From a virus: a stretch of DNA of 64,000 nt. Of this stretch, positions 3,130 through 63,764 are shown one piece after another. Below the pieces are notes generated by a model. It was given only the letters and a program-made list of their open reading frames with translations, ran no database searches and was not told the DNA's origin. The number at the start of each line of letters is the position of its first letter. The stretch's first letter is position 1. The stretch lies in the IMG/VR virus record IMGVR_UViG_3300036761_003567, positions 32,001 through 96,000 of that record; one strand, written 5' to 3'. The translations under genes and the position numbers were made by a program.

Positions 3130-3747
3130 ATGAAGGTGGAAGAACTCAAGTTTGGCGCGAAAGCCAAGGTCGTTAAGACGCTAGATGGCCTATCAGATAA
3201 AAGAAGATCTTCGTTTATAGGCCAAATCGGAGTCATCGTTGGCTTCTTTGCCCTAGATAACGCCATCGATAAAAAGACGAGATTCTCCGTCTCCCTGCGA
3301 TTTGATAACTCCTTAGGCATTGAAGAGTTCGATATGTGTGAGCTCGAACTAGATGCCGGTCCAGATGCCCTAATAAAAGCGATTGCAGAATTGGGCGGAA
3401 TCGAACAGAATAATAAGGTTTTCGTCGATGTGGCCGGTAAAGGCGATACGACGACAATTTCGAATGCTCTTGAGATAGTCCAGACTCAGCCATGGCTGGC
3501 CAGCGGAGCAATCCAGCCCATCGGAATAGCAGCTCAGCCCATCAAGCCAGGCGAGAGCGGATTCGTGAAGTTATTCGGCACTTTTGCAGAGGAGACGGAC
3601 CCTGAGAAATTAAAGAAAATGTCTGACCAATTCGGCTACGCAGGGGCTGTCGGCATCGACGGATTCGGCAACCCGATCGTCATCCCTCCGAAGCGTCCAC
3701 AGAAAAATAAGCCAGGCGAACTCGGGGAGAGAAAAGTCGAGGCATGA
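3130..3747 (+). CDS. Patchwork protein: SH3/KOW-like N-terminus, virion-like motifs, C-terminal PGELGERKV tag
   Basis: ATG 3130 just after GTATTTCA; VDVAGKGDTTTISNAL, IGIAAQPIKPGESGFV. Confidence 0.7.
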   Translation: MKVEELKFGAKAKVVKTLDGLSDKRRSSFIGQIGVIVGFFALDNAIDKKTRFSVSLRFDNSLGIEEFDMCELELDAGPDALIKAIAELGGIEQNNKVFVDVAGKGDTTTISNALEIVQTQPWLASGAIQPIGIAAQPIKPGESGFVKLFGTFAEETDPEKLKKMSDQFGYAGAVGIDGFGNPIVIPPKRPQKNKPGELGERKVEA

Positions 3748-14692: not shown

Positions 14693-15012
14693 GGCCTGTC
14701 GAATTTGCCCTTCCTCTGAAGGAAGCCGGAGTGCCTTGAGCCCTTCCGCTTCGGTCCAGCGTCCCCGCCCATCAGATCCCCGCCTAATGGACTTCCGCGG
14801 CCAATCTTCCCCTGTACGGCGCCAATCGGCGCATTGAAGTAAATCCGATGCCTCGGCTTGAGCGGCGTATCTTGATTACCAGATCTCTGTGGCAGGAGCT
14901 TCTTTTGTGCGGGGTATGATCTAAGCGGGTCCTGCATTCTCTTGAAATACCGCAGACCCATGGCTTGCTTGAGGTCGCCTGCTGTGGATTCGAATAGCGC
15001 GGTCAGTCTCAT
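14689..15012 (-). CDS. Basic small protein with N-terminal MRLTALFE motif
   Basis: 107 aa, coupled to the upstream gene. Confidence 0.55.
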   Translation of the reverse strand: MRLTALFESTAGDLKQAMGLRYFKRMQDPLRSYPAQKKLLPQRSGNQDTPLKPRHRIYFNAPIGAVQGKIGRGSPLGGDLMGGDAGPKRKGSRHSGFLQRKGKFDRP

Positions 15013-15559: not shown

Positions 15560-15805
15560 ATGTTTAGACAAAATGACATCGTCCGTTTGAAGGAAGAAAA
15601 GCACGTTAAATATGTCTCCGGCCCAAAGGGCAGGCCAGCCACGCCCAAAGGGGATTGGATAGTCGTCGGTTCCATGGGTGCGGATCTCATGCTGGCTAGA
15701 AACAATACTATCATCCGAATTCCCATGATCGACGTCGTCAAAATCGCTTCGTATGACATGGGTAGGATTCTCAAGGCAGTCGACGACGCAAAGCCAGTAT
15801 TTTAA
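15560..15805 (+). CDS. Small SH3-like hypothetical protein
   Basis: 81 aa; GAGGA SD. Confidence 0.55.
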   Translation: MFRQNDIVRLKEEKHVKYVSGPKGRPATPKGDWIVVGSMGADLMLARNNTIIRIPMIDVVKIASYDMGRILKAVDDAKPVF

Positions 15806-16911: not shown

Positions 16912-17304
16912 ATGGCTATTGTCAGCGCATTCCGGATCGATGACGTCGTGTATCTAAGGTCCTCGGCGCAGATCGGCTTCCTGGAAGCCTACAAGATCAG
17001 CGGGATCTTCCAGCTCAGGAACGACCGGTATGTCTACACGATCGACATCAACAGGAGGCCGCCGTCCGCTCAGACGCTCGGCGACCATATTGACCTGAAG
17101 CGCATCCAGACGCTCTACTTCACGGAGGATGAGCTTCTGACGTTCTGCGAGGCCGAGACGCTTGTCGTGCAGAATCTCGAGAGAAGGCTGCGGGAGGAGA
17201 AGGCTCGGTTCGCTGCCAGATGTTCAGTTTCACCAGGATCGGGAAGCACCGGTCCGACTCCGCCTGGAAGCGGGAGCGCCGGATCAACTGGGAGTGCCCC
17301 ATGA
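16912..17304 (+). CDS. Hypothetical protein with Gly/Ser tail
   Basis: 130 aa; AGGAG SD. Confidence 0.6.
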   Translation: MAIVSAFRIDDVVYLRSSAQIGFLEAYKISGIFQLRNDRYVYTIDINRRPPSAQTLGDHIDLKRIQTLYFTEDELLTFCEAETLVVQNLERRLREEKARFAARCSVSPGSGSTGPTPPGSGSAGSTGSAP

Positions 17305-17750
17305 ACAGACGATCTCTTTTAAAAGCCCTCACACTCCTCCCATTTGCACCCCTGCTCGGACGCAAGACAGAAGCAGCCATTCCGAATGGAGAAGACGACC
17401 TAGCCTATTGGCGGCGCATTCCGAATGGAGAAGACGACCTAGCCTATTGGCGGCACAAAGTAGAGCATTGCGAATCGATTGGGGACCATAAGAAGGCAGA
17501 GCTTTACCGCAGGAGACTGCTGCTCGCCGAGGACGTCGCTCTAATCCACGACATCCAACGGGCCAGAAATGGTCGGAAATTCTCTATGCACGTGGAACGT
17601 GTTGGTCGGGAAACTCTTTGCGTCACGATTCCAGCCGACCTATCGCCCCAGGAGGCCGTGAAGTATCTCGATTCCATAAAGAGACACTTTCGAAAAGTTG
17701 GGTGTCGCAATGCACGACGAGGTCTGGCACAAGCATATCTATTTAGCTGA
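17301..17750 (+). CDS. Tat-signal protein carrying a T4 gp20 portal-like fragment
   Basis: MNRRSLLKALTLLPFAPLL; LAEDVALIH.IQRA..RKF...DLSPQEAVKYLDSIKRHFRK. Confidence 0.6.
   Translation: MNRRSLLKALTLLPFAPLLGRKTEAAIPNGEDDLAYWRRIPNGEDDLAYWRHKVEHCESIGDHKKAELYRRRLLLAEDVALIHDIQRARNGRKFSMHVERVGRETLCVTIPADLSPQEAVKYLDSIKRHFRKVGCRNARRGLAQAYLFS
17378..17454 (+). repeat. In-frame tandem duplication with 39-bp period
   Basis: CATTCCGAATGGAGAAGACGACCTAGCCTATTGGCGGC twice (IPNGEDDLAYWR). Confidence 0.95.
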
Positions 17751-19531: not shown

Positions 19532-19854
19532 GCTACTGTGGAATGCGTTTTCCAGGGTCGCCAGGTCTACTTCAAATGAAAACGTGGTACAGCGCCATCT
19601 GTCGCAAATGTGGAGAGGGCGCGCAGATCTTCGTCTCAAATCCGAGCTGTACTATGGCCTACCTTGGAGAGAAGGATAAGGAGATTCAAGCCTTCCTAGA
19701 GAAGCACTTCGGATGTGAGCTCGAGCTCATCTGGCGGGATGACCAACTGGACGCACTCTTCAATTCGGGCTGGAAAGTCAGCATTCTCCCGGGCGTCTGC
19801 CGTTATTTCCGACCGGAAAGTATTTCATCTCCGTGTCCAAGCACGCCTTCGTAA
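19528..19854 (+). CDS. Hypothetical protein (start uncertain)
   Basis: CRKC...FLEKH.GC. Confidence 0.5.
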   Translation: MSYCGMRFPGSPGLLQMKTWYSAICRKCGEGAQIFVSNPSCTMAYLGEKDKEIQAFLEKHFGCELELIWRDDQLDALFNSGWKVSILPGVCRYFRPESISSPCPSTPS

Positions 19855-21514: not shown

Positions 21515-21550
21515 GCCGTATTTCACGGAGAACCATTAAAGGAGGAAGTC

Positions 21551-34048: not shown

Positions 34049-34501
34049 TCAGAAAGAAATAACCCGATTACCGAGTTCGCCGATCGGACCAGAAACCGTC
34101 TCGCCCGCCTTCTTCCCGTCCAGACGCCATTCCTTCCCGTCCCAGACCAGCACGCCGAATCCCTGGATGGAGATCTTCTTGCCAAGGCCCTCTGCAGTCA
34201 GCGTGACCTCCCTGACCCCATTCACGGGGGCGGAAGAGACGGAGACCTGGACCGCCTGAGGTGAATATTGGCCCTGATTACCCAGACCCTGCAATCCCAC
34301 AGAACCCTGCCAGCCTTGATAACCCGGCGGGCCGACAAACCCTTGAACGCCTTGAGAAGGGCCAGGGTAGATATCATCATCTGGAGCAAGCGGATTCCAG
34401 TTGGGATTGACGGCTCCGGGAGCTGTAATTGGCTTCGCCTTTCCGGCAAGAAAACCCTTCTTGCCAGTCAGCTTCTTGATGAGGTCTGCGAGCGGGCTCA
34501 T
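34049..34501 (-). CDS. Patchwork protein with collagen triplets, a tail-fibre-like motif and C-terminal PIGELGNRVI tag
   Basis: GVQGFVGPPGYQGWQG, GVLVWDGKEW. Confidence 0.65.
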   Translation of the reverse strand: MSPLADLIKKLTGKKGFLAGKAKPITAPGAVNPNWNPLAPDDDIYPGPSQGVQGFVGPPGYQGWQGSVGLQGLGNQGQYSPQAVQVSVSSAPVNGVREVTLTAEGLGKKISIQGFGVLVWDGKEWRLDGKKAGETVSGPIGELGNRVISF

Positions 34502-35460
34502 GTCGGATCCACCTTTCTGCCTCCCATCTTGCCAAGCGGCAATCCCGACGGTTTATCTATGACCGCGGGAGGGGAGAGCGGATTACCAAAAGCAGGCAAT
34601 TGCTTATTCTGGAGTTGTAGGATGCCCAGCTGTTGCAGTTTTTGCAGAGTTGCAAAGTCGCAGTTCTTCAAGACATCAGCTAGAGTTGCGGGCGAGACCT
34701 GGGACGGAGCCGCCCCCCCGATTTTATAATCATCTTCTGGCGCATATAGGGAATTTTGCAATTTCTGATTCATGAGGACTAGCTGCTGCTTCAAATCAAC
34801 TGCCTCTTCCTCTTTTATTTTGGCAACCTTCTTGGCTTCTTCTGATTCGTAGAGGACCTCCGGTAAGATGATCTCTACGCCCCTCAGGCTGAACGTACCC
34901 TCAAATGTGTCCTCTGGATCTGTTCCTTCGCGCGTGATCAGGACATAAACGGATTTGTCGCTTTTGTCGCCTATTATCTTGATGTTATCAAAAAGAATTT
35001 GACTATTCCAGCTGTCTTGGACAGGGACTACCTTCCTGATTATCTGTGCATTCTCGTAGGGAGACCCCATGTTCGTTATCTTGACGTGAAAGACCATCTG
35101 CTTGTTCTCGAGCGACTCTGCGATTTTTACTATGTCCGTATCCTGATCATCCTTGGGCAGATCCATGATCTTGGCGATGCAGGACGGACCAAAGTCCGAA
35201 TTTATGTGTCCGTTAAGCACCACGCGTATTGTGGTCCATTTCTTACCATCGCTCTTGAACAATACCCCCGCCGCGCTCTGCTTCTTGGAATAGAAGAGCA
35301 TATCCCCGTTGCTGTGAAGAGGCGGGCCCTTGTCGCCAAGTTTCTTGGTCTGGGGCTGGAGATCTTTCGCTTTAAAGGAATAACAGCCATTTGCGGCCTT
35401 GTTCTGGCCTTCCTGCCAGCCCTGGGCTCCAGCCCAACCAGATAGAGGCATGGGAGACAT
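34498..35460 (-). CDS. Patchwork protein with tail-like motifs and C-terminal PLGKMGGRKV tag
   Basis: GWAGAQG, NGDMLFY..LFKSDGKKW, VKITNMGSPY; GTATTTAA upstream. Confidence 0.65.
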   Translation of the reverse strand: MSPMPLSGWAGAQGWQEGQNKAANGCYSFKAKDLQPQTKKLGDKGPPLHSNGDMLFYSKKQSAAGVLFKSDGKKWTTIRVVLNGHINSDFGPSCIAKIMDLPKDDQDTDIVKIAESLENKQMVFHVKITNMGSPYENAQIIRKVVPVQDSWNSQILFDNIKIIGDKSDKSVYVLITREGTDPEDTFEGTFSLRGVEIILPEVLYESEEAKKVAKIKEEEAVDLKQQLVLMNQKLQNSLYAPEDDYKIGGAAPSQVSPATLADVLKNCDFATLQKLQQLGILQLQNKQLPAFGNPLSPPAVIDKPSGLPLGKMGGRKVDPT

Positions 35461-36773: not shown

Positions 36774-36802
36774 ACGGTACTTTTGGTTCGTATTTTAATT
36801 CC

Positions 36803-37465
36803 ATGGACGCGCCAAAGGTCAAGAAGTATCCCTTCATCGACGAGGTTGGTTATGTCCCGAATGAGATTATAAAGAAATGGGCGGGGGTCATAGGTAAAAT
36901 ACCCAAAGGGCCTCTGCCCAAAATCATCTCAAGCCAGGAAGAATTCGTAAAAGAGTTCGGCACACCCTCACCCGCAAATTCATTCGAGAAGAATTTTACA
37001 TTTCCCTTGCTCAAGAAAGTGAATCCCGGCGTGAATTTCTTCGCCGATAGTCTGGTCAGCGTGCAACCAATGCCGACACCGTCCATGAAAGGGCTGAAGG
37101 CAGCCTGGTCCGTAGAGGCTGTGGAAGACCTAAAGGCGGTTCACGGCATTGACATAGGAGAGCGACTTCAAGAAGAACTGATCCAGGCAATGTCCCAGCA
37201 GATGGCCAAAGAGGTCGATGAACAGATTCTTAAAGACCTTATAGAGCAGGTCCAGGAAGCGAAGCGTAGGGTGGCGATAAAGGCAGAGGAGAAGAGAAGG
37301 GAAGCCGTGTGGCGCAGTACTTTCAGCGTCATTGGCCGGAGATATTTGGACCCGGAAGAAATAAGAGCCGAAGAAGAGTCGGAAATCGAGACAGTGGAAA
37401 GAAAAGTCATCGTGGTCGTGCCGGACTTGCCGTTCGGATTAGGCTGTAGGCGGGTTCTGGTCTAG
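36803..37465 (+). CDS. Chimeric protein of terminase-, sheath- and major-capsid-like fragments with C-terminal PFGLGCRRV tag
   Basis: FIDEVGYVPN; GKIPKGP..IISSQEEFVKEFGTP; FPLLKKV.P..ADSLVSVQPM; LKAAWSVEAVEDLKAVHGID..EVDEQIL.DL. Confidence 0.75.
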   Translation: MDAPKVKKYPFIDEVGYVPNEIIKKWAGVIGKIPKGPLPKIISSQEEFVKEFGTPSPANSFEKNFTFPLLKKVNPGVNFFADSLVSVQPMPTPSMKGLKAAWSVEAVEDLKAVHGIDIGERLQEELIQAMSQQMAKEVDEQILKDLIEQVQEAKRRVAIKAEEKRREAVWRSTFSVIGRRYLDPEEIRAEEESEIETVERKVIVVVPDLPFGLGCRRVLV

Positions 37466-37651
37466 ATTCGGCAACTCAGGTGGGGCTAGCTGCACAGACT
37501 CCCACCGCGGACAGCTCATGTCATCCCAGGTGCCTTCCCGGGTATTGGGATTATCGGGAAAAGGCGGCTTCATAGCGCAATCCCCGCAGTTCGTCTGCTG
37601 GAATTGCGTATAGTGCTTGCACGTCTTACAGACCTTTTCTTGATCTGCCAT
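37439..37651 (-). CDS. Small Cys-rich protein
   Basis: CKTCKHY..GDC..C..W. Confidence 0.55.
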   Translation of the reverse strand: MADQEKVCKTCKHYTQFQQTNCGDCAMKPPFPDNPNTREGTWDDMSCPRWESVQLAPPELPNLDQNPPTA

Positions 37652-49961: not shown

Positions 49962-50125
49962 GTTCGAAGCCTCCGCGTACGCGCGTGACGCGTCCAGAAT
50001 CTCAAAAAGCTGATTCTCTCAAAGCTGATTCTCTCAAAAGCTGATTCTCTCAAAAGCTGATTCTCTCAAAAGCTGATTCTCTCAAAAGCTGGTCAGCGGC
50101 ATAGTTCGAAGCCTCCGCGTACGCG
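49962..50125. repeat. About 5.5 tandem 15-17-bp repeats flanked by 22-bp direct repeats
   Basis: (CTCAAAAGCTGATTCT)n at 50001-50091; GTTCGAAGCCTCCGCGTACGCG at 49962-49983 and 50104-50125. Confidence 0.95.
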
Positions 50126-50149
50126 ATGCGCTCGCCGAGAAGCGATCCG

Positions 50150-50430
50150 AAACGGGACCGGCCGCCCGCCCCCCGCCCGGGCCCCTGGGGGCGGGGGGCA
50201 GCACGCCCCCCGGGCCCGCCGGCCCGGCCCACCCCCCGCCCCCGGCGGGGCGGCGCGACCCCCACCCCCGGCCCCAGCCAAACCCCCCCCCCCACCGGGG
50301 GGACCAGCAGCACCCGGACCCCAGCCCGCCGCCGTCCCGTCTCGGCGGCGCGCCGGAGTCCGCCGCGTCCGGCCCCGTGCCACACCTCCGCGTGTCCGGC
50401 GGTGTGTCTCGGCCCAGCCGGTCCGGCAAA
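50150..50430. other. Extremely GC-rich non-coding tract with C runs and inverted repeats
   Basis: e.g. GCCCCCCGCCC...GGGCGGGGGGC and CCCCCCCCCCCACCGGGGGG. Confidence 0.8.
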
Positions 50431-50446
50431 CCAACGGAGGCTGCCA

Positions 50447-50755
50447 ATGGCAAGCGCCACCGCCGTCCGCCCCGTCGTCTCCGCCCTCGTCGGCCCCGTG
50501 TCCGCCCGCCCCCGCCCGCTCGTCCGCCCCGTCCGGCCGGACTTCCGGCTCTGCGACCTCCGCGTCCCCCCGCTGACCGAGCCCCAACTGCTGGCCCGCT
50601 ACCCGCACATGATCCCCGGCACGCTCCGGCGCGACCCCGTCGCCAACAAGAACGCGGTCGACATCCGGTGCGCGTGCGGAGCGGTCCGGATCGTGTACAC
50701 CTCGGACCTGTTCCACGTCCGGGCGTGCCGCGCCTGCAAGGCCTCCGGCAAGTAG
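50447..50755 (+). CDS. Zn-finger early protein, paralog 1
   Basis: YPHMIPGT...IRCACGAVRIVYTSDLFHVRACRACK. Confidence 0.75.
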   Translation: MASATAVRPVVSALVGPVSARPRPLVRPVRPDFRLCDLRVPPLTEPQLLARYPHMIPGTLRRDPVANKNAVDIRCACGAVRIVYTSDLFHVRACRACKASGK

Positions 50756-50895
50756 TCGCCCCGCGTGATCCCACGTGCGATCTTTGCGACCGGGCCCACC
50801 CAGCAACCTGCGCTGGGTGGGCCCATCTGGTCGTGAAACACCCCTTCCTGCTCGACCCCAGGAAGGGGAGTTCCACGTCCATTAGGAGACCAGAC

Positions 50896-51078
50896 ATGAA
50901 GCGGATCACGCCCAAGATTCGCGGGTACGCCTCGAGAGCAGATCGGGAGCGGGCCATCAAGCAGCTGTTCAGGAAGGGGTGGAATCACTTCGTCTGCTTC
51001 AGGGACGTACAGAGCGAGTTCGCGCTCCAGTACGGCCTCGCGCTCTGGGCCGGCAATTCCCCGTACATCCTGCGTTAG
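50896..51078 (+). CDS. Small early protein (paralog of 61659-61832)
   Basis: ADRERAIKQL.RKG.N.FV.F.D....FAL.Y. Confidence 0.65.
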   Translation: MKRITPKIRGYASRADRERAIKQLFRKGWNHFVCFRDVQSEFALQYGLALWAGNSPYILR

Positions 51079-52146
51079 GAGACCGAACGTGCAGAAGGCG
51101 GAGCAGACGGAGGAAGGGCGGGCGACTGCCACCCTCGGCGTGCTCGCGTTCGTGGCGATCCTGGCGATTCTGTGGCTGATCCTTTAGTGCGCTAAAGGAT
51201 CATATATTGAGGAGGGCAGGTACATGAACCGCTGGACGCTGCTCCGCGCGGCCACGCACACGTACTCGGCCAAGACCGTTGAGGTCCTGGTCGGGAAGGC
51301 GCAATTGCCCACCCTGGTGCAGGTGGGCACGATCATGAAGGACGACCGCACCGTCGCGGAGGAGTTCGCCATGGACCTCGCCATCGAGGGGCTCTACCCC
51401 TTGGACTGCGGGGACCACTGGCGCGTCTACAACATCGCGGCGTAGCCGGCGCGCAAGGCCGCCTCCCTCTCGACCCAGGGAGGCGGATTTGCTTGCCGTA
51501 TACCTCTTTTCAGGAGGGCAGACATGCCCCGCGTCAAGATCGTGGAGAGCGAGAAGCGGTTCCGGCGCGAGCCGGACCGGGCCTCGACCCTGCGCTTCTC
51601 CGTCATCGAGCGGCTGGGACCCGACGCCCAGGAACGCCGTGAGCAGGAGCCGGAGTTCCTGCAGGCCCAGGCCGAGGGACGCGCGTAAGCAAGCCCCGAC
51701 AAGACAGAGGGTTCCCACACCCCTGCACGTTCACTCGTGTCAGGAACTGGGCACTCTGGCTCTGACGTTTTGCGAGCGGCGGCCTCTTTCAGAGGGTCCC
51801 ATGCCAGAGGATTTCGCCCTCAAACCCGACCAGGTGAAGAGCCTGGCCGCGGCAATGGCCCTGTTGTACAAGATCTGCGACGGCTCGAACGAGTCCGTGC
51901 GTCAGGAAGCAGATCCGATCGCGTCGCTCTTGCGGAACTTCATCGCCAGGCACAAGTGAGGAGGGTCAGGCCATGACGAAGACCGAGCGAGTCATGGTGG
52001 CGAAGGTCGCCCGCGAGATTCGCGTCGTCATGCGCACCGTCGGCCGTCATGAGAACGGGAAGGTCAGGGTCTGGATTCGCCAGACCCTCACGCGCTGATG
52101 TGTGTCCGTTTCCACTTCTTTCTCAACTCTCTACAGGAGGTGTACC

Positions 52147-52455
52147 ATGGCGCCCGCCATCGCCGCCCGCCCGCTCGTGGAGGCCGTGAAGGTCTCCAAG
52201 CCGTTCCCGAAGGACGCCCTGTGGGCGCAGAAGAAGGGCCCGATCTCGGAGGCCCAGATCCTCGCGAAGCACCCGCACGCGATCCCCGGGACGCGCCAGT
52301 ACGACGTCGTGGCCAGGAAGTGGGCCATGACGATCCAGTGCGCCTGCGGCGCCACGCGGATCGTCTACACCTCGGACCTGCACCACGTCCGGACCTGCCG
52401 GGCGTGCAAGGCCAAGGCCGACGCCGCCAAGGTGGCCGTCGCGGTCCAGGCGTAA
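52147..52455 (+). CDS. Zn-finger early protein, paralog 2
   Basis: HPHAIPGT...IQCACGATRIVYTSDLHHVRTCRACK. Confidence 0.75.
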   Translation: MAPAIAARPLVEAVKVSKPFPKDALWAQKKGPISEAQILAKHPHAIPGTRQYDVVARKWAMTIQCACGATRIVYTSDLHHVRTCRACKAKADAAKVAVAVQA

Positions 52456-52599
52456 GCCTCTGCTCGCCATGGGACCGGCAATCTTGCCGGTCCCACAAGC
52501 CAGGAGCATCCACCCACCTGCACGTTCACTCGCGCAGGACCTGGATGCTGATCAGCCAGTCCGTCTTCCACTTTCTTGTGGCTCCGACAAGGAGGCTCT

Positions 52600-52860
52600 A
52601 TGACCACGCCCGCCCAGCCGCTCGTCGTCGCCGAGGCCGCCACCAAGGTCGCCAAGATCGCCAAGGCCCCCCGCAACGTGAACGTCACTGTCGCGGACGG
52701 GAAGCTCACCCTCGTCGTCGACCTGTCCGTCAACCTCGGACCCAGCTCGTCCGGGAAGACGAACCTCATCGCCTCCGGCACCGCGAAGGTCGCCGGCTAC
52801 GAGGGCGTGAGCTTCGGCCTCAACGTCTTCAAGAAGGCGAAGAAGGCCGACAAGAAGTAG
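52600..52860 (+). CDS. Small conserved beta-rich phage protein
   Basis: KLTLVVDLS..LGPSSSGKT.LIAS...GLNVF. Confidence 0.7.
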   Translation: MTTPAQPLVVAEAATKVAKIAKAPRNVNVTVADGKLTLVVDLSVNLGPSSSGKTNLIASGTAKVAGYEGVSFGLNVFKKAKKADKK

Positions 52861-53370
52861 GCTCATGGTCCAACGGGCGCGGCCGGACAAACGGGCGGAC
52901 CGGAGGTGACCAAACCGGGAAACCGGCGAAGGGGCCTCGCCCGCCGGCCGCGCTTTTGGGTCCTGATCCCGCGGAGCGAAAGCTCCCTAGTCTCACATGA
53001 CCAGAGGAGGGCAAATGCCCCGAAAGTGTCGATCGCCCCCGGCCAATCCGCCTGAGAGATCCGCCGTGAGCCAGAGTGCCACGGCCGGTTGAGGCACGTC
53101 AGGCACCCGAACAGGGGTAGGCGAATGCCGAGAACCCCAGAAAGGTAGAGATCGAATACTCCTTACATAGCGCCACCTCCAGAGTGCCCATATAAAGGAA
53201 CGGTTTGAAGATTTCTCGTTTCCCCGGGCAAGAGGTGGCGAACCGGTTCAGGACCGGCCTGACCGCGACGAGGACAGGACGTATAAAACCTGTCCGCTCC
53301 GGCTCCGCCAGGACACCGTTCATTCGGGTCTGGCGTCCCGTCGCGGGGAGATCGGCCCCTTTCCAGGAAG
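52860..53370 (+). ncRNA. Structured intergenic RNA cassette A
   Basis: Conserved stem 52860-52886/52944-52971 shared with cassette B; further hairpins. Confidence 0.55.
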
Positions 53371-54356
53371 GTGAAAATATGGACGAGCTGACGCAGCAGA
53401 TGCGGGACCGGCTGGTCGAGATCCTGCTGACCAGCTCGAGAGATGAGGCGATCAAGTACCTGCGCAGGCAGGGCGTCCCCGAGGACCGGGCCATCGTCTA
53501 CGTCGACGACGAGGAGAACCGGCTTCTCGCGTAGGTCGGCGCACAAATATGGGTCCGAACGATGACCGAAGTTCGGTATCCATGAAGAGAAAGGTAACCT
53601 GTTGGCAAGGACGGGGTTTCCTTGCCATTCCGAGTGCCACGGACGGGCATTGGATCGGCAATTGCCAACCTGTTCATCAAGCAACTAATTCCGACGGACG
53701 GAAAGGCTGGACGGCTGGTCAGCAACGTTCGGGCCGGAAACACGTGCGACGCGGTCGTTTCGAGAGTTTCGGGTTGTCGCGGTCTGGCAGGACCAGCCCG
53801 ACCAGCAGACCAGCACCCGGCCTCTTGGATCAATTCTTCAACTCACACGCTGACACGGACCAGTTTGGACCGGTCACGGACGCCCCGGGAAGGGGAAGTG
53901 GCCACGTTTCAGGAGGGGACATGAAGATCGTGTCAGCCACGTACGCAGGCCTCGAGCGTCCGTTCACCAAGGTCAAGGTGGCTGTCCAGTTCGAGGACGG
54001 GACGGTGGACGAAGGCACGATCCTCTTCGAGAACGAGGGTCGGGACATCGATTTCGAGGGCTTCAAGGACGGAGACCGGGTCAGCGAGGCCTTCCCCGAT
54101 CTCGATGAGGCGGACTGGGACAAGATCGAGAAGCCGGTGAAGGAGGGCATGGTGGAGTACGACGCGATCGTCGGACACTGACACAGTTTCCGGCCTTTTC
54201 AGGAGATGGGACATGCCGAAGCAGCAGGACAACTCGACCAGCGCCGCGTGGTTCAAGCGGGACCCCCGCAAGGTGGATCGGCCCGCGAAGAACTTCTTCC
54301 ACCGGCCGCTCACGGTCAAGCTGGACCATCTGGTCAGGCTCAAGCTCGTGCAGTGC

Positions 54357-54660
54357 GGCTCATGATCCAACGGGCGCGGGCTGGTATTCCGTAACGGAAG
54401 CAGGCAGGGAGTTGCCCCGCCGCCAGCCCGCGCTTTTGGGTCCTGATCCCGTGAGGCTTATGGGACGTCCGAGGACGAACGTGGACCTCCTGTTTGCTTC
54501 CAAGGCGCAGACCCAAGAAAGGAGGCCGGACCATGCGGTGAATGTGAAGGGAGGTGGCGACCCACTTCCGTCCCGTAGACCGGGCTGACCGCGACGACGC
54601 GCCAGGCCGTTAATTCGGGCTGGCCAACGGCGCCGCGAGTGGGCTGGTCTCCGATCTCTC
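54357..54660 (+). ncRNA. Structured intergenic RNA cassette B
   Basis: Stem 54357-54384/54423-54451 covaries with cassette A; shares TGACCGCGACGA and CCGTTMATTCGG. Confidence 0.55.
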
Positions 54661-57600
54661 AGTGTTATCAGGACGTCCTTACTCTTGTGTCTCTCCCGGA
54701 TCAGGAAGACCCGGGAATCTTGACGAACCGCAACTGAAATGGACACAACCCCGTGAGATCCCTTTGGGAGGAAGACAATGCGAGCCATAGACCTCAAGGT
54801 AGCCGTCCGGGTCGCGCTGCTGTACGGGATCCGCGGCTTTGCCAGGGCGGATGACACGGGCATCATCTCGCAGGACGAATCGCAGCAGGGGATGCGGGCC
54901 ATGCGCCAGTGGGAGAAGCTGCCCCTCGTCCTGCAGGGCGTGCTGGCCGTCCGGGACATGTTCGCGGCGGTGTGCTCCGATTTCAAGACATCGCCCGAGG
55001 AGTATGACGCGCTGATCCTCGAGTTCTTCGAGAAGGACTTCAGGCAGCCCCACGAAGGGGGCTAACCGAGCGGACCAACGTCGTGGACTCAATTAGGGGT
55101 TGGACCATGACCTTCGCCGAGACGCTCGCTGCAGCCATCAAGCTCCTGGGGCCAGACGACTCCGTGTGCGTCGGCGTGGACGCATGGAGCTACCCGGGCG
55201 GCGACACCCGCCTGACGTGGGACGTCTGGAGCGACAGCCGTCGCATGCACTGGTACGGATCGACGCCCGAGGCGGCACTCGCCGCCGTCCAGTCCACCTT
55301 GGACGAACTGGCGCACGACGCACATCTCCGGATCGAGGCCGTCCAGATGTAGTTCCGGATTCCCATTCCCCTCCCGTATTTCAGGAGTAGGCCCATGTTC
55401 CTGATCCGCGTGGTCGTAGCCCGTCTCTGGGCGGTCCTGACCGGCTTGGCGATCCGCAGCAAAAGCGGCAGGAACGCGTGCGCCTACTGCCGCGGGGCGG
55501 GGTGCGTGCCCGATTCGGGCCTCTTCTCCGAGGCGTGCCCGCTGTGCGGCGGAACGGGAACGTCCTCCCAGGAGGTGGCAAGGTGAAGCCGTCCGAACTC
55601 AAGGAGGGCCAGCACACCGAGATCCGGACCAACGGGGTCTTGTGTGCCCAGTTCACCTTCGAATATGGGTGGCTGGAACTCGTCATGTGGGCGGATGACC
55701 AGGTCGTCGACGAACACATCCCAGACCACCTCCTGGCTGACAAGGTCATGTCCATCCGCTTCAACTACGGGACGTCCTTCCCCCGCAATCCCGAGGGTCC
55801 GAACCCGCTCACGCCCGAGGGTGCGGACGAAGCCTGGGTGCAGATCGAGGGAGACCTGCCACAGATCAAGGAGGCAATGTGATCTATACACAACAAGCTC
55901 TTGGTGAAGTACGACGAAAAAGCGGGATCTCCCTCAAGTCGATATGTGAGAGGAACGGATGGGCCACGACCGAGGCCCTGGCGCTGGCGAAGGACGCCTC
56001 TCTGGCCACGCTGGACGAGGTCGAGCGGCGCTACCTGGACGCGGCGAAGGCCTGCGTCGGGAAGGGGCACAACATCGAGGCGTCGTACGTCCAGGAGCTG
56101 ACCGGCAACGTCATGCGGATCCTGAGACAGGAGGTGAGGGGATGAGGAACCTGGATTCATCCTCCCTGCCAGAGCCTCAATTAAGGGCGGGAGAGATCCT
56201 GATCCCATCCGGTCGCGTCGGCGACGTCGACCTGTTTTCGGCCGCCAACGACGAAGACTTCTGCTCAAGCAAGGAAGAGAAGCTCAGGGTCCGGCAGCGG
56301 AACAGGAAATCAAGAAGGGGGTGACGGGATGAAGGTCATGGTCCGACTCGACAAGCACAAGCAGAGAGCCGTCCGGGAGCAGAACTTCAGCCTGGCGATC
56401 AAGATCCGCTGCGAGATGCGCGCCCGGAGCTATTGGACCCTGTCCACCCTGCTCAGGTCGCTCCTGGGACTCGATCCCTTCGAGAACAGGCGGATTGAGA
56501 AGGCAGCCGAGGCCCTCGACCTCCTGGCGATCAGGAACGCCAGCAAGGCCGGCACCACCCACGAAGCCCTGTTCGGCGACGGCGACAACACCTACGGCGT
56601 CGACCTGGGAGATTTGAAGCTCCTGTAAGGAGATCAAGGTGAAGAAGGCAAAGTACTCTCCCATGGATGACCTGCGCCAGATCGTCAGCTGCATGGACGA
56701 GTACGGGCAGCTCGAGCACGAGGTGGAGGTCATACTCTGGAACGAGGACCCCAAGATGGGACAGGTCCAGGTGAAGCTCATCGACATGACGCTCGAGGAT
56801 GGGGGCAAGAACCCGGCCTTCACGCTCTCCTGGGCCGGGCGCTTCTGCGGCAGGCCGATGCTCCGGATCAAGGGGCCCAAGATCGACGTCCTGATCTCCC
56901 CCATCCCCAAGTTCGTGCTGGCTATCCTGATGGAGGCGTAGCCGACCCGGGAATCTTGAAGAACCAAATGGGAGGTGGCATGATCGAGACCAAGACCAGC
57001 AGCAGGGACCAGGCGGTCGAGTGGCTGGAGAAGGCCATCCCGAACTTCGCCATCCGAGTGGCTCCCGTCTACCAGGCGCTCAACTGGACCTGGTGGATGA
57101 GCCCCGTCTCGCCGGATGCGGCTGCGATCGAGCGGGCGCTGCGGGAGCTGATGACCCACGTAAGGCAGGGGAGCACCTCTGCCGCGACGGGCGGGCTGGT
57201 GGTCGAGCTGACCGAGAAGTGCGGGACGCTGGAGGCGCGGCTGTCGATGCAGGTCGATGAGGAGCGCAAGTTCACAGTGGGAGGTGCCCGATGAAGGCCT
57301 CTTGGAAACCCGAGGGAAGCCATGAGTTCCTGTTCGACTTCGAGCTGGAAGGGGGAGTGAACGACGAGCACATGTTCACGATCGCCTTCAACGCGACGCC
57401 ATTCTCCCCCGCCAAGACGCAGGGAGACCCGGACGACTGCCACGACGCGGAGGGAGGGGAGATCGAGGACCTGACGGTCTTCATCAATACCTACAGTGGC
57501 CCCATGAACGAGGCCTGCACTGTCCACGAGGTCCCTGAGTACCTGTGGCCCGCCCTGGGCTTCGACAGGAAGGTTCTGGTCCAGCAGTGCGAGGACCACG

Positions 57601-60472
57601 TCCGCGACGAGGACGAGCGGCTGGCGTCCCAGGAAGGGGACCGCAAGTGCGACGAGGCAAGGGAACGGCGCGGGGTGGAAGGATTAGGGGAAGGAGACAA
57701 GTGATGGACACGGGCTTTCTCATCGCCTGCCTGGTCTGGCACCTGCACGACAGGTTCTACGCGACCGACACCGAGGTCTATGCGAAGGCCGGAGGCGAGC
57801 TGATACGGATGGCGGACGAATGCGGAATTCCCTGGCTCAAGGTGGCGGGAATCCTCGTGATCAAGCCCACCGAGGAGGTCTCATGAAGGCCTATTTGGTC
57901 AGCGAGTGCTGGTTCAGCCGGGGCGACGTCCGGATGAACGAGTGGCGGGCGGGGATGACCTGCCTGCCGCTAGTCGGGAAGTCCTGGCGGTGGCTGTACC
58001 TCTGGGCCCTGAACACCGTCCGCTGCCTGCGGGCGCTGTTCTTCTAGGAGATTCCATGATTCCCGCCATCTCCCGTCTGGCCGACTGGTGGACGCAGGGG
58101 AAGTCCCATCTGGTGCTGGAGGCGTGGAGGCGGTCCGTCAACATCCCCCTGATCATCCCCGTGCCCCTGCGCGAGAGCGTTGCCCAGCTGGTCTCGCTCC
58201 GGGAGCGGGTGTCCGCTTGCTGGGACTTCTGCCCCGGCTCCGTCAAGGAGGTGCTGGTCACCCGTCAGCTCCCCCGCAATCAGGCCCGTCGCCACGTCGC
58301 GAAGGTCATCTCCCGCCTGCCCTACCGGCAGGTGATCCGGCTCAACCCGAAGGTCGCCTACCGCGTGGTCTGGCAGCTCATGTAACCTGACGTTTCCCGC
58401 TTCCCTTTCCCTTGGAGGTGCGTGCATGTCGAAGAAGGACATCGTGCTGGCGGCCGGGTCCCTCCCGCCCGGGGTCGTCACGGACTTCACCGTGACGAAG
58501 GACGACGTGCTGGCGATCTTCGTCAGCAGGAAGGAGCAGGAGCTCCTGGCCGAGAAGGAGGCCGCCGACAAGCAGATCGAAGCGGTCGCCGACGACATCG
58601 AGAAGGCGAGCGAGGCGCTCAAGAAGGCCGTCGAGAAGGCCGGCGAGGACCTGATCGGCAACGTCGTCAGGAAGGTCAACGAGCTGCTGAAGGAGGCCGG
58701 GCTCAGCGGGAAATTCGAGGCCCGCACGTGCCTCATGGACGAGGACGACAAGAAGAGCCTGGAGATCGGCATCTCCGGGTGCATGGGCGGGGCGAAGAAG
58801 GCCCTGACCCCCGAGGTCAGGACCGTGCTCAGCGACATCAAGAAGCTGGAGGAGAAGGGCGTGGAGGCCGAGAAGGCCGCCATCGCCGCCCGCCAGCAGC
58901 TGATGAAGCTGCCCGCGGAGGAGCGCCGCGTCCGGGCCAAGCTGGCCACCCGCGCGCTCAGCCAGTCCGACGCCGGCCGCAAGTTCCTGGAGTCCTTCGA
59001 GGGGAACCAGGAGTAGGGACCGGGCGCGCCGCAGGGAAGGGGCAACCTACCCTCCGGCGCGTACGGGCCTCACTTTTGGAGATCAAATATGGGCGATTTC
59101 GACGACTGCTCGGTTCGGGAAGCTCCAGTCCGTAAAGCTCCCCGGATGGCAGCTGCCGTGGCGGAGGATATCGACATCGGCAAGGTGTTCGTTCCCGTGG
59201 AGGATGCCAAGAAGGCTCTCAGCCTGGAGAAGGATGGGAAGGAGATCGTCTGGGCCGACAACATCAAGACCCTGACGGAGATGCTTCGCGACAGGAGCGG
59301 GATCAACAATGTCGTCGCGTTCCAGGACTGCCAGTATGGAGGGTCCAAGATCAAGGTCTACGAGCTGAATGCCCCCGTCTTCACGAATCCGCTGGACGTC
59401 AAGTCGGCAGTCAAGGGTGGCGGGAAGGCCATCCTTTACACGATTTCGGAGTCGTCCAACGACCACTTCGACGCGATCAAGAAGGTCATAGAAGACGGCA
59501 CGATCAAGTCATGCTTCAGAATCGACGAATACGTCAGGAAGTCCGGCACAGCGGCGTGCTCAACCGGCATTCGCCACGCTTTCTCCCTGCTGAAGTCCTA
59601 TGACAAGGCGAAGGCCAAGGAGGCCTCCAAGAGGCGGAAGGCGTGGATCGTCCAGCACGGACGGATCGACTGCAACGACCTGAACGAGGTCTTCGGCATT
59701 CTCATCAGGACCGTCCGTGATTACTACTCATTCGACGGCTTCCATTACTTCGTGAACTGGAACTGGCAGCGTCCGAAGGAGCGCGAAGCCATCTACAAGG
59801 CCGTCATCATCCTGTCCCGGCGCATCGACCAGCTCGTCTACGACGAATTCAGCGGAAGCAAGAAGGTCAACAAGTTCGACTTGACGTTCAGCAAGTTGAC
59901 GTTCAGCAAGTACAGCAAGTGGGTCAAGATTCCCTACACGAAGTGGGTCATCAGCCTGCGTCAGTACAGGAAGGGGCTGCTCCAGACGGAGGATGGGACG
60001 AAGACAATCCGCAAGACGGAATGGAGGCCCGTGGACAAAAGCGAAGTCCACGATTCGCGTGTTGTAAACCGCGGACCGAACGAGTGGGTCAAGGTGAAGA
60101 AGCAGGTGAAGGTCAGCGGGAAGCCCGCCCGTGAGTTTGGCAAGTGGCTGGACAGCGAGATCCGCGCGTGCATCCAGTATCTCCGGTCCAAGAAGGCCAA
60201 GAAGGAGGGAAAGAGATGAAGACCCAGAAGATTCCGCCACGCATCCAGATCGCCGCGGTCATCATGCTCCAGAAGCCGGACAAGGGCTGGAAGTCAGGCG
60301 ACAACCCCGAGATCGACTCGCTCGCGGAAGACTTCGCGGCAGACGACCTCAACGTCGATGACATCCTCGTCAAGAAGGGCAGCAGGAAGGTTGAGTTCCT
60401 CGTGTCGTGGAGCCTGCCCAGTTCGTTCAACGGGTTCAAGATCGTCAACCTGGAGGCGATGAAGGGGAGCAA

Positions 60473-60931
60473 ATGAAGCCTGTCCTCCTGCTGGACGTCG
60501 ACGGCGTGCTCAACATCGGCGGAGACCAGCGCGAGACGGTCCATCTGCCCGGAACCTTCCTTCCTCTCTGGGCCTGCCGGAACTGGAAGTCCTTCCTGCG
60601 GAAGGTGGACCAGATCTCCGAGCTGGTCTGGTGCACCTGCTGGATGGAGCGGGCGAACTTCATCGGGAAGGCGGCAGGGATCCCCGAGAGGCCGCATATT
60701 CCCATGGTCGCTATCGAGGGGAAGGATCAGGACTGGAAGTGCGTCTCCGTCGACCGCATGTTCCCCGATCCGGCCCGCAAGCTGGTCTGGGTCGAGGACG
60801 GATTCCGCGACGACACGAGGCAGTGGGCCAAGCGGCGCGGGAACATGAAGCTCATCCACGTCCGCTTTCTGAGCGGTCTCACCAAGCGGACGATGCGGAA
60901 GGTGATTCGGCATCTGAGTAAAGGAGACTGA
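60473..60931 (+). CDS. HAD-domain protein (Swiss-army-knife RNA-repair HAD-like)
   Basis: LLLDVDGVLN, LVWCTCW, VWVED. Confidence 0.75.
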   Translation: MKPVLLLDVDGVLNIGGDQRETVHLPGTFLPLWACRNWKSFLRKVDQISELVWCTCWMERANFIGKAAGIPERPHIPMVAIEGKDQDWKCVSVDRMFPDPARKLVWVEDGFRDDTRQWAKRRGNMKLIHVRFLSGLTKRTMRKVIRHLSKGD

Positions 60932-61869
60932 CATGGCGAAGATCACGGTCCATTTCAAGACCCCGGACGCCGTAGACGCGGCCATCTTCGATGCCACGGG
61001 GACGGAAGTCCACGGCAACTTGACCCAGGAGCAGCAGGAGATCAAGGACGCCCTGGCGAAGTTCATCGAGTACGGCGAGAGCATCGAGGTCGAGTTCGAC
61101 ACGGAAGCAGGCACGGCCACCGTCATCCCCCTCTAGGAGACCTACCATGTCGCAGACCCTTCTCGGCGTGGACGGCCCGATCGGCTGGACCGACCACTAC
61201 ACGACCCGGCGCGGCGTCCGCGGCAGCAACACGATCTTCAAGCCGGACGCGATCGTCGCCGTCGACCTGTCCGTCCCCCGCTTCTACAAGCTGGTCGTGC
61301 GGAACGGGAGCTCGCGGCCCTTCGTGGCCACCGGCAGCTTCCACGCGATGTGGGAGCTCTGGAAGCACCTCGGCCTCTCGGACGGCCAGATGGAAGAGGG
61401 ATCCCTTCCCAAGAAGGCGGACTACGCGTCCATCTCCCCCGTCTCGGGCAAGGGCTCGAACCTGTTCGCCTCCCGCGGGGGTGAGCACCGCGAGAACCTG
61501 CTGGCCGCGGACCTGGTGATGACCGCCGGCGTCGAGGACGTGCTCGACGCGTGGGCGGAGCTGTCCCGCTTCGGCTGGAAGGCCAACATCCAGGCGGCGT
61601 AGCGTCGGCGTGGACAAGGCAAGGGTTTCATCGAAGACTCCATCAGGAAGGCCAACGCGTGATCCAGACCATCTGCCGGAGTTATGGGCGGCTCGCTGAC
61701 AGGAACCGGGCGATCGCCCAGCTCAAACGCAAGGGCTACAACCGGTTCGTGCTGTTCTACGACGCCAAGGGCTTCTTCGCGCTGTCGTACACGAGGCGCT
61801 ATTCTGACACCTCGTGCTCGTTCTCCTGGTAATTCCCATCCCCACTCTCCCTCTGGCAAGGAGCCAAAT

Positions 61870-62436
61870 ATGGACGAGATGGAAGCGTTGCAGGCGCAGC
61901 TCGAGAAGAATCTGGGCCTCGGCCAGAGGCTGATCGACAAGCCGGCCAAGCAGACGCCGAAGGCCGACGTGCCGGTGCTGGTCGTCGCCGAGGGCCAGAC
62001 CCAAGTCAAGCCGGTCAAGCCGGTGAAGACTCCGGGCCTCGCCATCGTCAAGGCGATCGTCGACAAGAACAAGAAGCTCAAGCCCAAGTCAGAGATCAAT
62101 GCGGCCTCGGCGAGGGCGATGAAGAGCAGGAACCCGGACGGGACGAAGAAGCCCAGAATCCCGACGCTCAAGACCAAGGGGCCGGACGAGGCAGCCCTGC
62201 TCAAGAAGTACCCGCACGCGAAGGCGGGCACGCTCTACTACCAGCCCGCCGCCAAGAAGTGGACCATCGAGATCGCCTGCGCCAAGTGCAAGGCGGCGCG
62301 GATGGTACATACCTCAGACCTCTTCCAGGTCAAGCTGTGCGTAGCCTGCAAGGGCGCGAAGCCGACCAAGCAGACGGTATCCACGGAGCAGAAGGCCAAG
62401 AACATCGAGGCCCTCGCCAAGGAGATCCTGGGGTGA
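61870..62436 (+). CDS. Zn-finger early protein, paralog 3, with Lys/Pro-rich extension
   Basis: KYPHAKAGT...IACAKCKAARMVHTSDLFQVKLCVACK. Confidence 0.75.
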   Translation: MDEMEALQAQLEKNLGLGQRLIDKPAKQTPKADVPVLVVAEGQTQVKPVKPVKTPGLAIVKAIVDKNKKLKPKSEINAASARAMKSRNPDGTKKPRIPTLKTKGPDEAALLKKYPHAKAGTLYYQPAAKKWTIEIACAKCKAARMVHTSDLFQVKLCVACKGAKPTKQTVSTEQKAKNIEALAKEILG

Positions 62437-63520: not shown

Positions 63521-63551
63521 CTAGTCTTGCTCTGCCCATTAGGAGGCCTCT

Positions 63552-63764
63552 ATGCGTTGGCTACTACTGGTCATTCTGCTGGTCCCGCTCACGACCCTCG
63601 GTTGCAGCGAAGGCGTCTCGCAACGTGAGGGATTTGGCGTGGAGTACAAGAACAACCTGAATTCCTGGCGCGTAGTCCCGATCGTCATCGACGGGCACAA
63701 ATACATCCTGGCAACCGGTGGTGACAGCGGCGCATGCTCCATCTGCCCGGCCAAATCTGACTAG
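63552..63764 (+). CDS. Small lipoprotein
   Basis: MRWLLLVILLVPLTTLGC lipobox. Confidence 0.65.
   Translation: MRWLLLVILLVPLTTLGCSEGVSQREGFGVEYKNNLNSWRVVPIVIDGHKYILATGGDSGACSICPAKSD

What the first reader, a model, noticed from the sequence alone, without database searches (positions are those of the whole stretch)
36803..37465. One small protein apparently stitched from conserved epitopes of terminase, tail sheath and major capsid: candidate immune decoy
Seen: four segments in order - FIDEVGYVPNEIIKKW; AGVIGKIPKGPLPKIISSQEEFVKEFGTP; FPLLKKVNPGVNFFADSLVSVQPMPTP; LKAAWSVEAVEDLKAVHGID...EVDEQILKDL. From recalled family consensus these resemble (1) the T4 gp17 terminase Walker B region (YIDECAFIPN...W), (2) the gp18 sheath N-terminal G..KGP...I.S..F...FG.P motif, (3) the gp23 Gol region (MVRRAIPNLIAFDICGVQPM..P) and (4) the gp23 LKA.W..E..QDL.A.HG.D helix. 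At 220 aa it cannot fold as any parent protein. Established: terminase and capsid are triggers of anti-phage sensors (Avs for terminase, Lit via the Gol peptide, CapRel for capsid). Inference: a phage-encoded multi-epitope decoy that titrates host sensors, or a dominant-negative assembly inhibitor against competing phages. The terminase match is the shortest and weakest.
Basis: partly seen in the sequence, partly recalled or inferred. Interest (0 to 1): 0.92.

Follow-up and report, generated by a model that had tools for sequence, protein, structure and literature searches.

The report
Sheath-capsid chimeric mini-protein with tag
A giant uncultured T4-like phage keeps a small conserved gene stitched from the start of its tail-sheath protein and two non-adjacent pieces of a major capsid protein, ending in a short peptide shared with unrelated proteins; it probably mimics virion proteins, but its job is untested.

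Summary
The ORF (window 36803-37465, +, 220 aa) is real and is kept in a handful of close relatives.

**Observation.**
- Residues 9-58 match the N-terminus of the phage's own tail sheath, in register (0 of 10,000 shuffles reach the score).
- Residues 58-93 match the capsid N-arm, the Gol-equivalent stretch (E 7e-9).
- Residues 96-154 match the capsid strand plus long helix (E 3.6e-18; Pfam Gp23 E 3e-10).

The "terminase" segment is not supported. It belongs to the sheath-like N-terminus.

**Other features.**
- Residues 155-220 are novel: a charged helix and a strongly conserved tail.
- The tail ends in a motif, [LMV]-G-x-R-[KRV]-[VIL]. It ends six ORFs of this 107-kb contig and none in 355 kb of four related contigs.
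- The protein cannot form either parent fold.
- A promoter-like motif precedes it and also precedes replication genes.

**Interpretation.** The immune-decoy idea is untested. The Gol-like piece is the least conserved part, and a frameshift lies inside it in a near-identical genome.

My best reading is a tagged mimic of virion-protein peptides whose partner is unknown.

This scan noted similar tagged capsid or sheath fragments in other giant phages. Four literature searches found no description of such proteins.

The parts
36790..36797 (+). Promoter-like motif GTATTTTA, 5 nt before the ATG
   Evidence: GTATTT[CT]A is about 8-fold enriched upstream of genes. With the same 5-nt spacing it precedes tagged ORF A, a polymerase-like ORF and a small ORF. 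At other spacings it precedes a DNA helicase, UvsX and gp32.
36803..37465 (+). Whole ORF, 220 codons plus stop (protein P0001)
   Evidence: Seven relatives at 56-99% identity keep the frame open, and their indels are in frame.
36827..36976 (+). Residues 9-58: copy-like stretch of the tail-sheath N-terminus (sheath residues 10-60)
   Evidence: This is the best conserved part of the family (84-88% identity).
36974..37081 (+). Residues 58-93: capsid N-arm piece (FP.L..V.P....A..VSVQPM), the equivalent of the T4 Gol region
   Evidence: Capsid HMM positions 67-99, E 7e-9. BLASTP against P0009. Least conserved part of the family.
37088..37264 (+). Residues 96-154: capsid strand plus long helix (LKA.WS.EA.EDL.A.HG.D...EL......EVD..I)
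   Evidence: Pfam Gp23, E 3e-10. hhalign probability 98.9%. HMM E 3.6e-18. It matches T4 gp23 residues 257-308 in PDB 6uzc.
37265..37342 (+). Residues 155-180: charged continuation of the helix, with no parent found
   Evidence: AlphaFold2 predicts one helix over residues 120-180, the only part with pLDDT above 60. No match to capsid proteins.
37343..37462 (+). Residues 181-220: conserved tail. The last 12 residues, LPFGLGCRRVLV (37427-37462), carry the shared end motif.
   Evidence: 84% identity and no gaps across the family. Motif statistics.
37085..37088 (+). ATGA. In a near-identical genome a frameshifted N-terminal ORF stops here (TGA) and a second ORF starts here (ATG of Met95).
   Evidence: P0010 and P0007 both lie on one 284,750-bp contig. 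The +1 frame of the window DNA reproduces the P0010 tail.
3130..3747 (+). Unrelated ORF A ending ...PGELGERKVEA (same end motif, same promoter-like motif)
34049..34501 (-). Unrelated ORF B, with collagen-like Gly triplets, ending ...PIGELGNRVISF
34498..35460 (-). Unrelated ORF C ending ...PLGKMGGRKVDPT. Its stop overlaps the start of B (ATGA).

Best explanation
**Shown.** This is a real, lineage-specific gene of a jumbo T4-like phage. It encodes a chimeric mini-protein with these parts:
- about 50 residues copied long ago from the N-terminus of the tail sheath;
- two non-adjacent pieces of a T4-type major capsid protein, the N-arm (Gol-equivalent) piece and the strand plus long helix, with the E-loop and insertion domain between them missing;
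- a novel charged helix;
- a conserved tail ending in a short peptide that five other ORFs of the same contig also carry (four of them clearly unrelated proteins, one 69-codon ORF of doubtful reality).

It lacks almost everything needed for the HK97 fold or the sheath fold. It is predicted to be one long helix with flexible ends.

**Inferred.** It works as a molecular mimic. It displays peptides that are exposed on unassembled sheath and capsid subunits, and so competes for something that binds those subunits. The end peptide docks it to a partner shared with the other tagged proteins. The promoter-like motif it shares with replication genes suggests it is made before or apart from the bulk of virion proteins.

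The partner is not identified. It could be a host sensor, a chaperone or translation factor, or a rival phage's assembly line.
For: **Identity of the pieces:** (capsid; sheath).

**No parent fold:**
- Only 51 of 376 Gp23 profile positions are matched.
- AlphaFold2 gives mean pLDDT 44, with one helix at residues 120-180.

**Under constraint:**
- Seven homologues keep the frame open, with in-frame indels.
- The ends are 84-88% identical while the middle is 26%.

**End motif:**
- Six ORF ends in 107 kb carry it, against 0.2-0.4 expected.
- None occurs in 355 kb of four related contigs.
- Synonymous sites differ between copies, so the conservation is at peptide level and not a DNA repeat.

**Shared promoter-like motif** with a helicase, UvsX and gp32.

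**Recurrent design:**
- 80 of the 147 best database hits outside the family are under 200 aa, and 74 of those start with Met.
- All of the 96 hits under 350 aa match the capsid HMM.
- Three carry the helix and the N-arm piece in reversed order.
Against: - No binding, expression or phenotype data exist.
- dN/dS could not be computed because no DNA of the relatives could be fetched.
- The family is tiny: 8 sequences in 3 clusters at 50% identity.
- It is absent from four partial relatives.
- In a near-identical 284,750-bp contig the ORF is broken by a frameshift. That could mean it is dispensable.
- The cognate capsid protein is not on this contig, so the age and source of the capsid pieces are unknown.
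- The motif pattern was defined after seeing the tails, which inflates its P value.
Confidence: 0.5

Rival explanations
1. Immune decoy. The protein soaks up or blinds host sensors that recognise capsid, sheath or Gol-type peptides, such as Lit, CapRel-type or Avs-type systems.
For: - It carries pieces of two virion proteins of the kinds known to trigger defence. The review PMC13728456 covers capsid triggers, and PMC3014915 covers Gol-Lit.
- It is probably co-expressed with replication genes, ahead of late proteins.
Against: - The Gol-equivalent piece is the least conserved part. It is absent in P0006 and carries the frameshift in a near relative.
- An early Gol-like peptide would be expected to trigger Lit, not block it (inference from PMC3014915).
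- The four literature searches run here turned up no phage-encoded capsid-fragment decoy.
- The host and its defence systems are unknown.
Confidence: 0.15
2. Assembly interference or control. The sheath N-terminal and capsid N-arm and helix peptides insert into subunit interfaces. This would either poison the assembly of co-infecting related phages or hold the phage's own subunits back until assembly starts.
For: - The retained pieces are parts that contact neighbouring subunits in T4 heads. PMC9958956 describes the N-arm contacts.
- The sheath-like and helix pieces are well conserved.
- Relatives with the same two capsid pieces in either order suggest selection for displaying those peptides, not for a fold.
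Against: - There is no evidence of binding.
- Which surface of the sheath or capsid subunit the pieces would engage is not known.
Confidence: 0.2
3. Decaying relic. It is a leftover of rearranged duplicate structural genes, drifting towards loss, with no function of its own.
For: - Narrow distribution.
- The middle part is eroding.
- A frameshifted copy sits in a near-identical genome.
- The structure prediction has low confidence.
Against: - Homologues down to 56% identity keep an open frame, and their indels are in frame.
- The two ends are 84-88% identical, much higher than the middle. Neutral decay would not produce that pattern.
- It has its own promoter-like motif and an end motif shared with other ORFs.
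- The frameshifted copy still gives two ORFs joined by an ATGA overlap.
Confidence: 0.1
4. Plain colinear capsid paralogue. Every segment comes from the capsid protein, and the sheath resemblance is chance.
For: - Residues 20-35 (NEIIKKWAGVIGKIP) resemble capsid N-termini of the clade: 50% identity over 16 aa, E 0.002 in a small database.
- hhalign of residues 10-95 against capsid positions 12-102 gives probability 93.8%.
- 3 of 3,000 shuffles reach the capsid N-terminus HMM score.
Against: - For residues 1-60 the sheath model scores 14.3 bits and the capsid model 6.4 bits.
- Among 3,411 ORFs the protein is the top non-sheath hit of the sheath model, but only twelfth (4.1 bits, E 8.5) for the capsid N-terminus model.
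- The nearly invariant capsid motif LLENQ is missing.
Confidence: 0.05

Closest known systems
T4 gp23 major capsid protein and its paralogue gp24 (Pfam PF07068; PDB 5vf3, 6uzc, 1yue)
   Same: Residues 58-154 derive from this family. They cover the N-arm or Gol-equivalent motif and the strand plus long helix.
   Different: gp24 is a complete HK97-fold paralogue that sits in the shell. This protein keeps about 90 of roughly 520 capsid residues. It lacks the E-loop, the insertion domain, the P-domain sheet and the A domain. It lies among replication and nucleotide-metabolism genes.
Contractile tail sheath proteins (PF04984/PF17482; here the phage's own 973-aa sheath, P0158)
   Same: Residues 9-58 align in register with sheath residues 10-60.
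   Different: None of the sheath core domains is present.
T4 Gol peptide of gp23, the activator of the Lit protease through EF-Tu (PMC3014915)
   Same: Residues 66-93 are the positional equivalent of the conserved Gol region.
   Different: Here the stretch is a free-standing, poorly conserved part of a mini-protein. EF-Tu binding was not tested.
Capsid targeting sequence of T4 internal proteins, and C-terminal docking or degron tags (sliding-clamp-binding tails, ssrA-type tags). These comparisons come from my own knowledge.
   Same: A short terminal peptide is shared by otherwise unrelated proteins of one genome.
   Different: The sequence and position differ: the T4 targeting sequence is N-terminal and clamp tails are hydrophobic. 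No reader of this tag is known.
Tagged capsid- and sheath-fragment mini-proteins noted by this scan in other giant phages (AI notes e1-5633699, e1-6010779, e1-6009001, e1-5361035)
   Same: A small conserved gene made of virion-protein fragments, plus a short terminal tag shared with unrelated proteins of the same genome.
   Different: The tag sequence is different. Here one polypeptide joins pieces of two different virion proteins. Those notes are unchecked and unpublished.

Membership tests
Pfam Gp23 / HK97-fold major capsid proteins | Sequence match to the family profile above the curated cut-off | tested here: met
   40.5 bits against a cut-off of 24.4, but over profile positions 148-198 of 376 only.
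Pfam Gp23 / HK97-fold major capsid proteins | Complete fold: E-loop, P-domain sheet and A domain (about 400-550 aa) | tested here: not met
   The protein is 220 aa. Capsid residues 101-307 and everything after about 360 are absent. AlphaFold2 shows one helix and no sheet.
Pfam Gp23 / HK97-fold major capsid proteins | Gene lies in the head module next to the protease or scaffold | tested here: not met
   Its neighbours are a kinase-, phosphatase- and GNAT-like set and replication genes. In relative L002 the true capsid gene follows a protease-scaffold gene.
Contractile tail sheath | N-terminal conserved stretch (IG...KGP...P..IS.....V..FG.P) | tested here: met
Contractile tail sheath | Sheath core domains (PF04984, PF17482) | tested here: not met
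   No hit in Pfam. The PHROG sheath family gives only E 0.3, over residues 27-62.
Terminase large subunit | ATPase with Walker A and Walker B motifs; match to Terminase_6N | tested here: not met
   No hit at E up to 10. The clade terminase Walker B region gives E 2.8.
Phage anti-defence decoys or sponges | Binds and neutralises a host immune sensor or signal | not testable with these tools
   The host and its defence systems are unknown. This needs co-expression and binding assays.
Tagged virion-fragment mini-proteins (a class seen only in this scan's notes) | Small conserved protein built from fragments of virion proteins | tested here: met
Tagged virion-fragment mini-proteins (a class seen only in this scan's notes) | Ends in a short peptide shared with unrelated proteins of the same genome | tested here: met
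   Six ORF ends against 0.2-0.4 expected, and none in four related contigs.

The most novel reading that the evidence does not exclude
The protein is one component of a phage-wide system. In it, cut-down peptides of virion proteins are joined to an address tag and delivered to one reader, so as to blind host sensors of unassembled capsid or sheath, or to poison the assembly of competing phages. This would be a form of protein-level mimicry not yet described for phages.
Probability: 0.25. Interest if true: 0.9.

Novelty: categorically new. Interest (0 to 1): 0.68.

Why it matters
Structural proteins are major triggers of bacterial immunity and the building blocks of assembly. A conserved gene that displays only selected peptides of two such proteins would be a new kind of viral tool. 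It could act against host sensing, control assembly, or work against rival phages.

The short end peptide shared with unrelated proteins points to an unidentified docking or addressing partner in giant phages.

Public databases hold many stand-alone capsid-helix mini-proteins, some with the same pieces in shuffled order. The phenomenon therefore looks widespread, and I found no description of it in the literature I searched.

It can be tested with ordinary expression, pull-down and phage competition experiments.

Tried and rejected
**Ideas tested and dropped**
- Terminase origin of residues 11-26: no HMM hit, and the clade terminase gives E 2.8.
- The C-terminal part as a second, degenerate copy of the capsid helix: 365 of 2,000 shuffles reach the score.
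- The end motif as a shared DNA element: synonymous sites differ between copies.
- Patchwork origin of the other tagged ORFs, and of the "portal-bit" ORF at 17301-17750: no Pfam or PHROG hits, and no similarity to other ORFs of the contig apart from one collagen-like match.

**Searches that found nothing useful**
- Residues 1-60 against PDB sequences: no hit.
- Atlas structure neighbours included sheath-domain clusters, but at TM 0.26-0.33, which is too low to use.
- The search for homologous proteins with 'longer' lengths: nothing.
- Fetching DNA of relatives for dN/dS failed. Two metagenome scans (after one server error), one related-locus scan and one pattern scan of viral contigs gave no family member.

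- Complex prediction of residues 1-95 with the sheath core (residues 620-973) gave no verdict. It is not evidence either way.

Full report
**Where it lies**

The window is bases 32001-96000 of a 107,223-bp IMG/VR virus contig that CheckV rates 29% complete. That implies a jumbo phage of roughly 350 kb.

The window carries T4-type replication genes:
- a DnaE-type polymerase in pieces,
- UvsX,
- a DnaB-like helicase,
- a gp32-type single-strand-binding protein.

The contig also carries the phage's 973-aa tail sheath. It carries no full capsid gene and no terminase.

The ORF's neighbours are small accessory genes: a phosphatase- or kinase-like protein, a GNAT-like protein and a dNMP-kinase-like protein.

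**The observation**

The ORF at 36803-37465 (+) encodes 220 residues, and the four quoted peptides are present. An upstream ATG at 36767 is unlikely to be the start. All homologues begin MDAPK, and a promoter-like motif lies between the two ATGs.

**Capsid pieces**

- Pfam Gp23 matches residues 96-150 (E 3e-10, above the curated cut-off), but only over profile positions 148-198 of 376. PHROG 138 agrees.
- BLASTP against a full-length relative's capsid protein (P0009, from L002) gives two colinear matches:
  - residues 20-93 to capsid 21-100 (E 7e-9),
  - residues 98-152 to capsid 308-358 (E 3e-11).
- An HMM of 20 capsid proteins, four of them from contigs of the same sheath clade, places two domains:
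  - residues 58-93 on positions 67-99 (E 7e-9),
  - residues 96-154 on positions 258-312 (E 3.6e-18).
- A profile of the family matches T4 gp23 residues 257-308 in solved heads.

The roughly 200 residues between the two pieces are missing, and so is everything after the helix. In T4 that interval holds the E-loop with its inserted I domain (PMC9958956).

The first piece is the positional equivalent of the T4 Gol region. PMC3014915 describes Gol as a 29-residue stretch, the most conserved part of gp23, that binds EF-Tu.

**Sheath piece**

It holds up against the right comparators:
- BLASTP against the phage's own sheath aligns residues 9-57 to sheath residues 10-60 (E 0.004).
- An HMM of the first 140 residues of 121 clade sheaths scores residues 1-60 at 14.3 bits (E 1.8e-6). 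None of 3,000 shuffles reaches it.
- Smith-Waterman scores against three sheath N-termini are 74, 68 and 54. The shuffle mean is 24 (sd 4.6), and none of 10,000 shuffles reaches them.
- Among 3,411 six-frame ORFs of five related contigs, this ORF is the best non-sheath hit (11.8 bits, E 0.036; the next scores 8.0 bits).

The alignment starts near residue 9 of both proteins. The ORF therefore seems to have inherited the very start of a sheath gene.

**Terminase piece**

The terminase piece is not supported:
- No Pfam or PHROG terminase hit at E up to 10.
- The Walker B region of three clade terminases scores 16.9 bits, E 2.8.
- The residues in question (YPFIDEVGYVPN) lie inside the sheath-like alignment (sheath: FPREIDLSLVPN).

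A competing reading links residues 20-35 (KKW...) to the capsid N-terminus. It has weak support (E 9e-4) and fails the genome-wide control, where it ranks twelfth at E 8.5.

**The rest of the protein**

Residues 155-220 match nothing. AlphaFold2 with the family alignment gives mean pLDDT 44. It predicts a single helix at residues 120-180 and no sheet.

**Is it a working gene?**

The large databases hold only a small family:
- P0002 and P0003, at 98-99% identity;
- P0004, P0005, P0006 and P0008, at 56-80% identity;
- two fragments, P0007 and P0010.

All members keep the frame open, and their indels are in frame.

Conservation is very uneven:

| Residues | Part | Mean identity |
|---|---|---|
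| 1-27 | N-terminus | 84% |
| 28-57 | sheath-like stretch | 88% |
| 58-95 | capsid N-arm (Gol-like) | 26%, with 49% gaps |
| 96-150 | capsid strand and helix | 70% |
| 151-180 | charged helix | 71% |
| 181-220 | tail | 84%, no gaps |

Neutral decay would not give this pattern.

P0010 and P0007 lie on the same 284,750-bp contig. P0010 is residues 1-71 plus an out-of-frame tail. The window's +1 frame reproduces that tail. Its stop overlaps the ATG of Met95, where P0007 starts (ATGA at 37085-37088). In a near-identical genome, then, the gene is split inside the Gol-like piece. This could be an assembly error, a step towards loss, or a two-part version.

I could not compute dN/dS because no DNA of the relatives was obtainable.

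**The end motif**

A first-stage note on this genome (e1-6026150) pointed to a shared C-terminal peptide, and I tested it.
- The pattern [LMV]-G-x-R-[KRV]-[VIL] occurs in the last 10 residues of six ORFs of the 107-kb contig. It occurs at 4 of 116,497 interior positions. About 0.2 tail hits are expected, giving Poisson P about 8e-8. The pattern was defined after the fact, which inflates that P value.
- Four related contigs totalling 355 kb have none.
- The tails use different codons, so the conservation is at peptide level.
- The bodies of the other tagged ORFs match no family and do not match each other.

**Expression signal**

GTATTT[CT]A is about 8-fold enriched upstream of genes.
- It sits exactly 5 nt before the start codon of this ORF, of tagged ORF A, of a polymerase-like ORF and of one small ORF.
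- At other spacings it precedes a DNA helicase, UvsX and gp32.

This suggests co-regulation with replication genes and possibly leaderless mRNAs. Both points are inferences.

**Wider context**

The exhaustive profile search returned 547 hits at E up to 0.001. Outside the family they match only the capsid strand-helix piece.
- Of the 147 best, 80 are under 200 aa, and 74 of those start with Met.
- Ten have twin-arginine-like N-termini, and six end in an S-[IL]-x-D-D-W-like tail.
- Three (P0021, P0054, P0156) join the helix piece to the N-arm piece in the reverse order.
- None carries the sheath-like stretch.

Stand-alone capsid-helix mini-proteins are therefore common. The same two capsid pieces have been combined in either order. 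That argues for selection on the peptides themselves.

Notes of this scan report similar tagged capsid and sheath fragments in other giant phages. I treat those as leads only.

Literature searches found capsid proteins as triggers of defence, but no phage-encoded capsid- or sheath-fragment protein.

**Interpretation**

What the evidence shows is a conserved chimeric mini-protein that cannot adopt either parent fold. Its conserved parts are the sheath-like N-terminus, the capsid helix and a tagged tail.

Most likely it acts by mimicry, and the tail docks it to a partner shared with the other tagged proteins. I give this reading about 0.5.

Three things could be the target of the mimicry, and the data do not decide between them:
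- a host sensor,
- a chaperone or translation factor such as EF-Tu,
- a rival phage's assembly.

The specific Gol-decoy version is weakened by the poor conservation of that piece. A relic reading (about 0.1) is weakened by the conservation pattern.

One complex prediction (N-terminal 95 residues with the sheath core) returned no verdict and is not used as evidence.

Noticed in passing
window 3130-3747 (+), 34049-34501 (-), 34498-35460 (-), 37427-37462 (+); also genome 101968-102294 (L003:5968-6294) and genome 9750-9959: Six ORFs of the 107-kb contig end in P-x-G-x-[LMV]-G-x-R-[KRV]-[VIL]-x(1-3). About 0.2-0.4 are expected, and four related contigs (355 kb) have none. It looks like a lineage-specific C-terminal address or docking peptide whose reader is unknown.
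   Followed up: partly
window 36790-36797, 3117-3124, 19820-19827, 14943-14950 (-), 15797-15804, 21518-21525; genome 26143: GTATTT[CT]A is about 8-fold enriched upstream of genes. In four cases it lies exactly 5 nt before the start codon (possible leaderless mRNAs). The genes behind it include a DNA helicase, UvsX, gp32 and two tagged ORFs. It is a candidate phage-specific promoter class.
   Followed up: partly
proteins P0011-P0157: Public databases hold many complete small proteins (64-200 aa) that consist of the capsid strand-plus-helix piece alone. They have varied ends: ten with twin-arginine-like N-termini and six with an S-[IL]-x-D-D-W tail. P0021, P0054 and P0156 join the helix and N-arm pieces in reversed order. 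P0029 has two helix copies.
   Followed up: partly
window 37085-37088; proteins P0010 and P0007: In a near-identical 284,750-bp contig the gene is split by a frameshift into two ORFs whose stop and start overlap (ATGA).
   Followed up: partly
window 37439-37651 (-): A convergent 70-codon ORF rich in cysteine pairs (CKTC...CGDC) overlaps the last 27 bases of the finding's ORF. It matches no family.
   Followed up: no
L003:6844-8388 (genome 102844-104388): A classic AAA ATPase (PF00004, E 2.8e-27) is encoded about 550 bp downstream of one of the tagged ORFs. It is a conceivable reader of terminal peptides, but nothing links them.
   Followed up: no
window 5529-6878 and 9316-11403: A DnaE-type DNA polymerase is split into separate ORFs, with other genes between them (PHROG 405 positions 42-439 and 448-1029). 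Other notes of this scan also flag this.
   Followed up: no
genome 26159-28972 (L004:14159-16969): A 937-aa DNA helicase carries an inserted LAGLIDADG-type endonuclease-like segment (residues about 326-530). An intein is likely.
   Followed up: no
window about 50000-64000: G+C rises from about 0.55 to 0.60-0.68 over the last 14 kb of the window.
   Followed up: no
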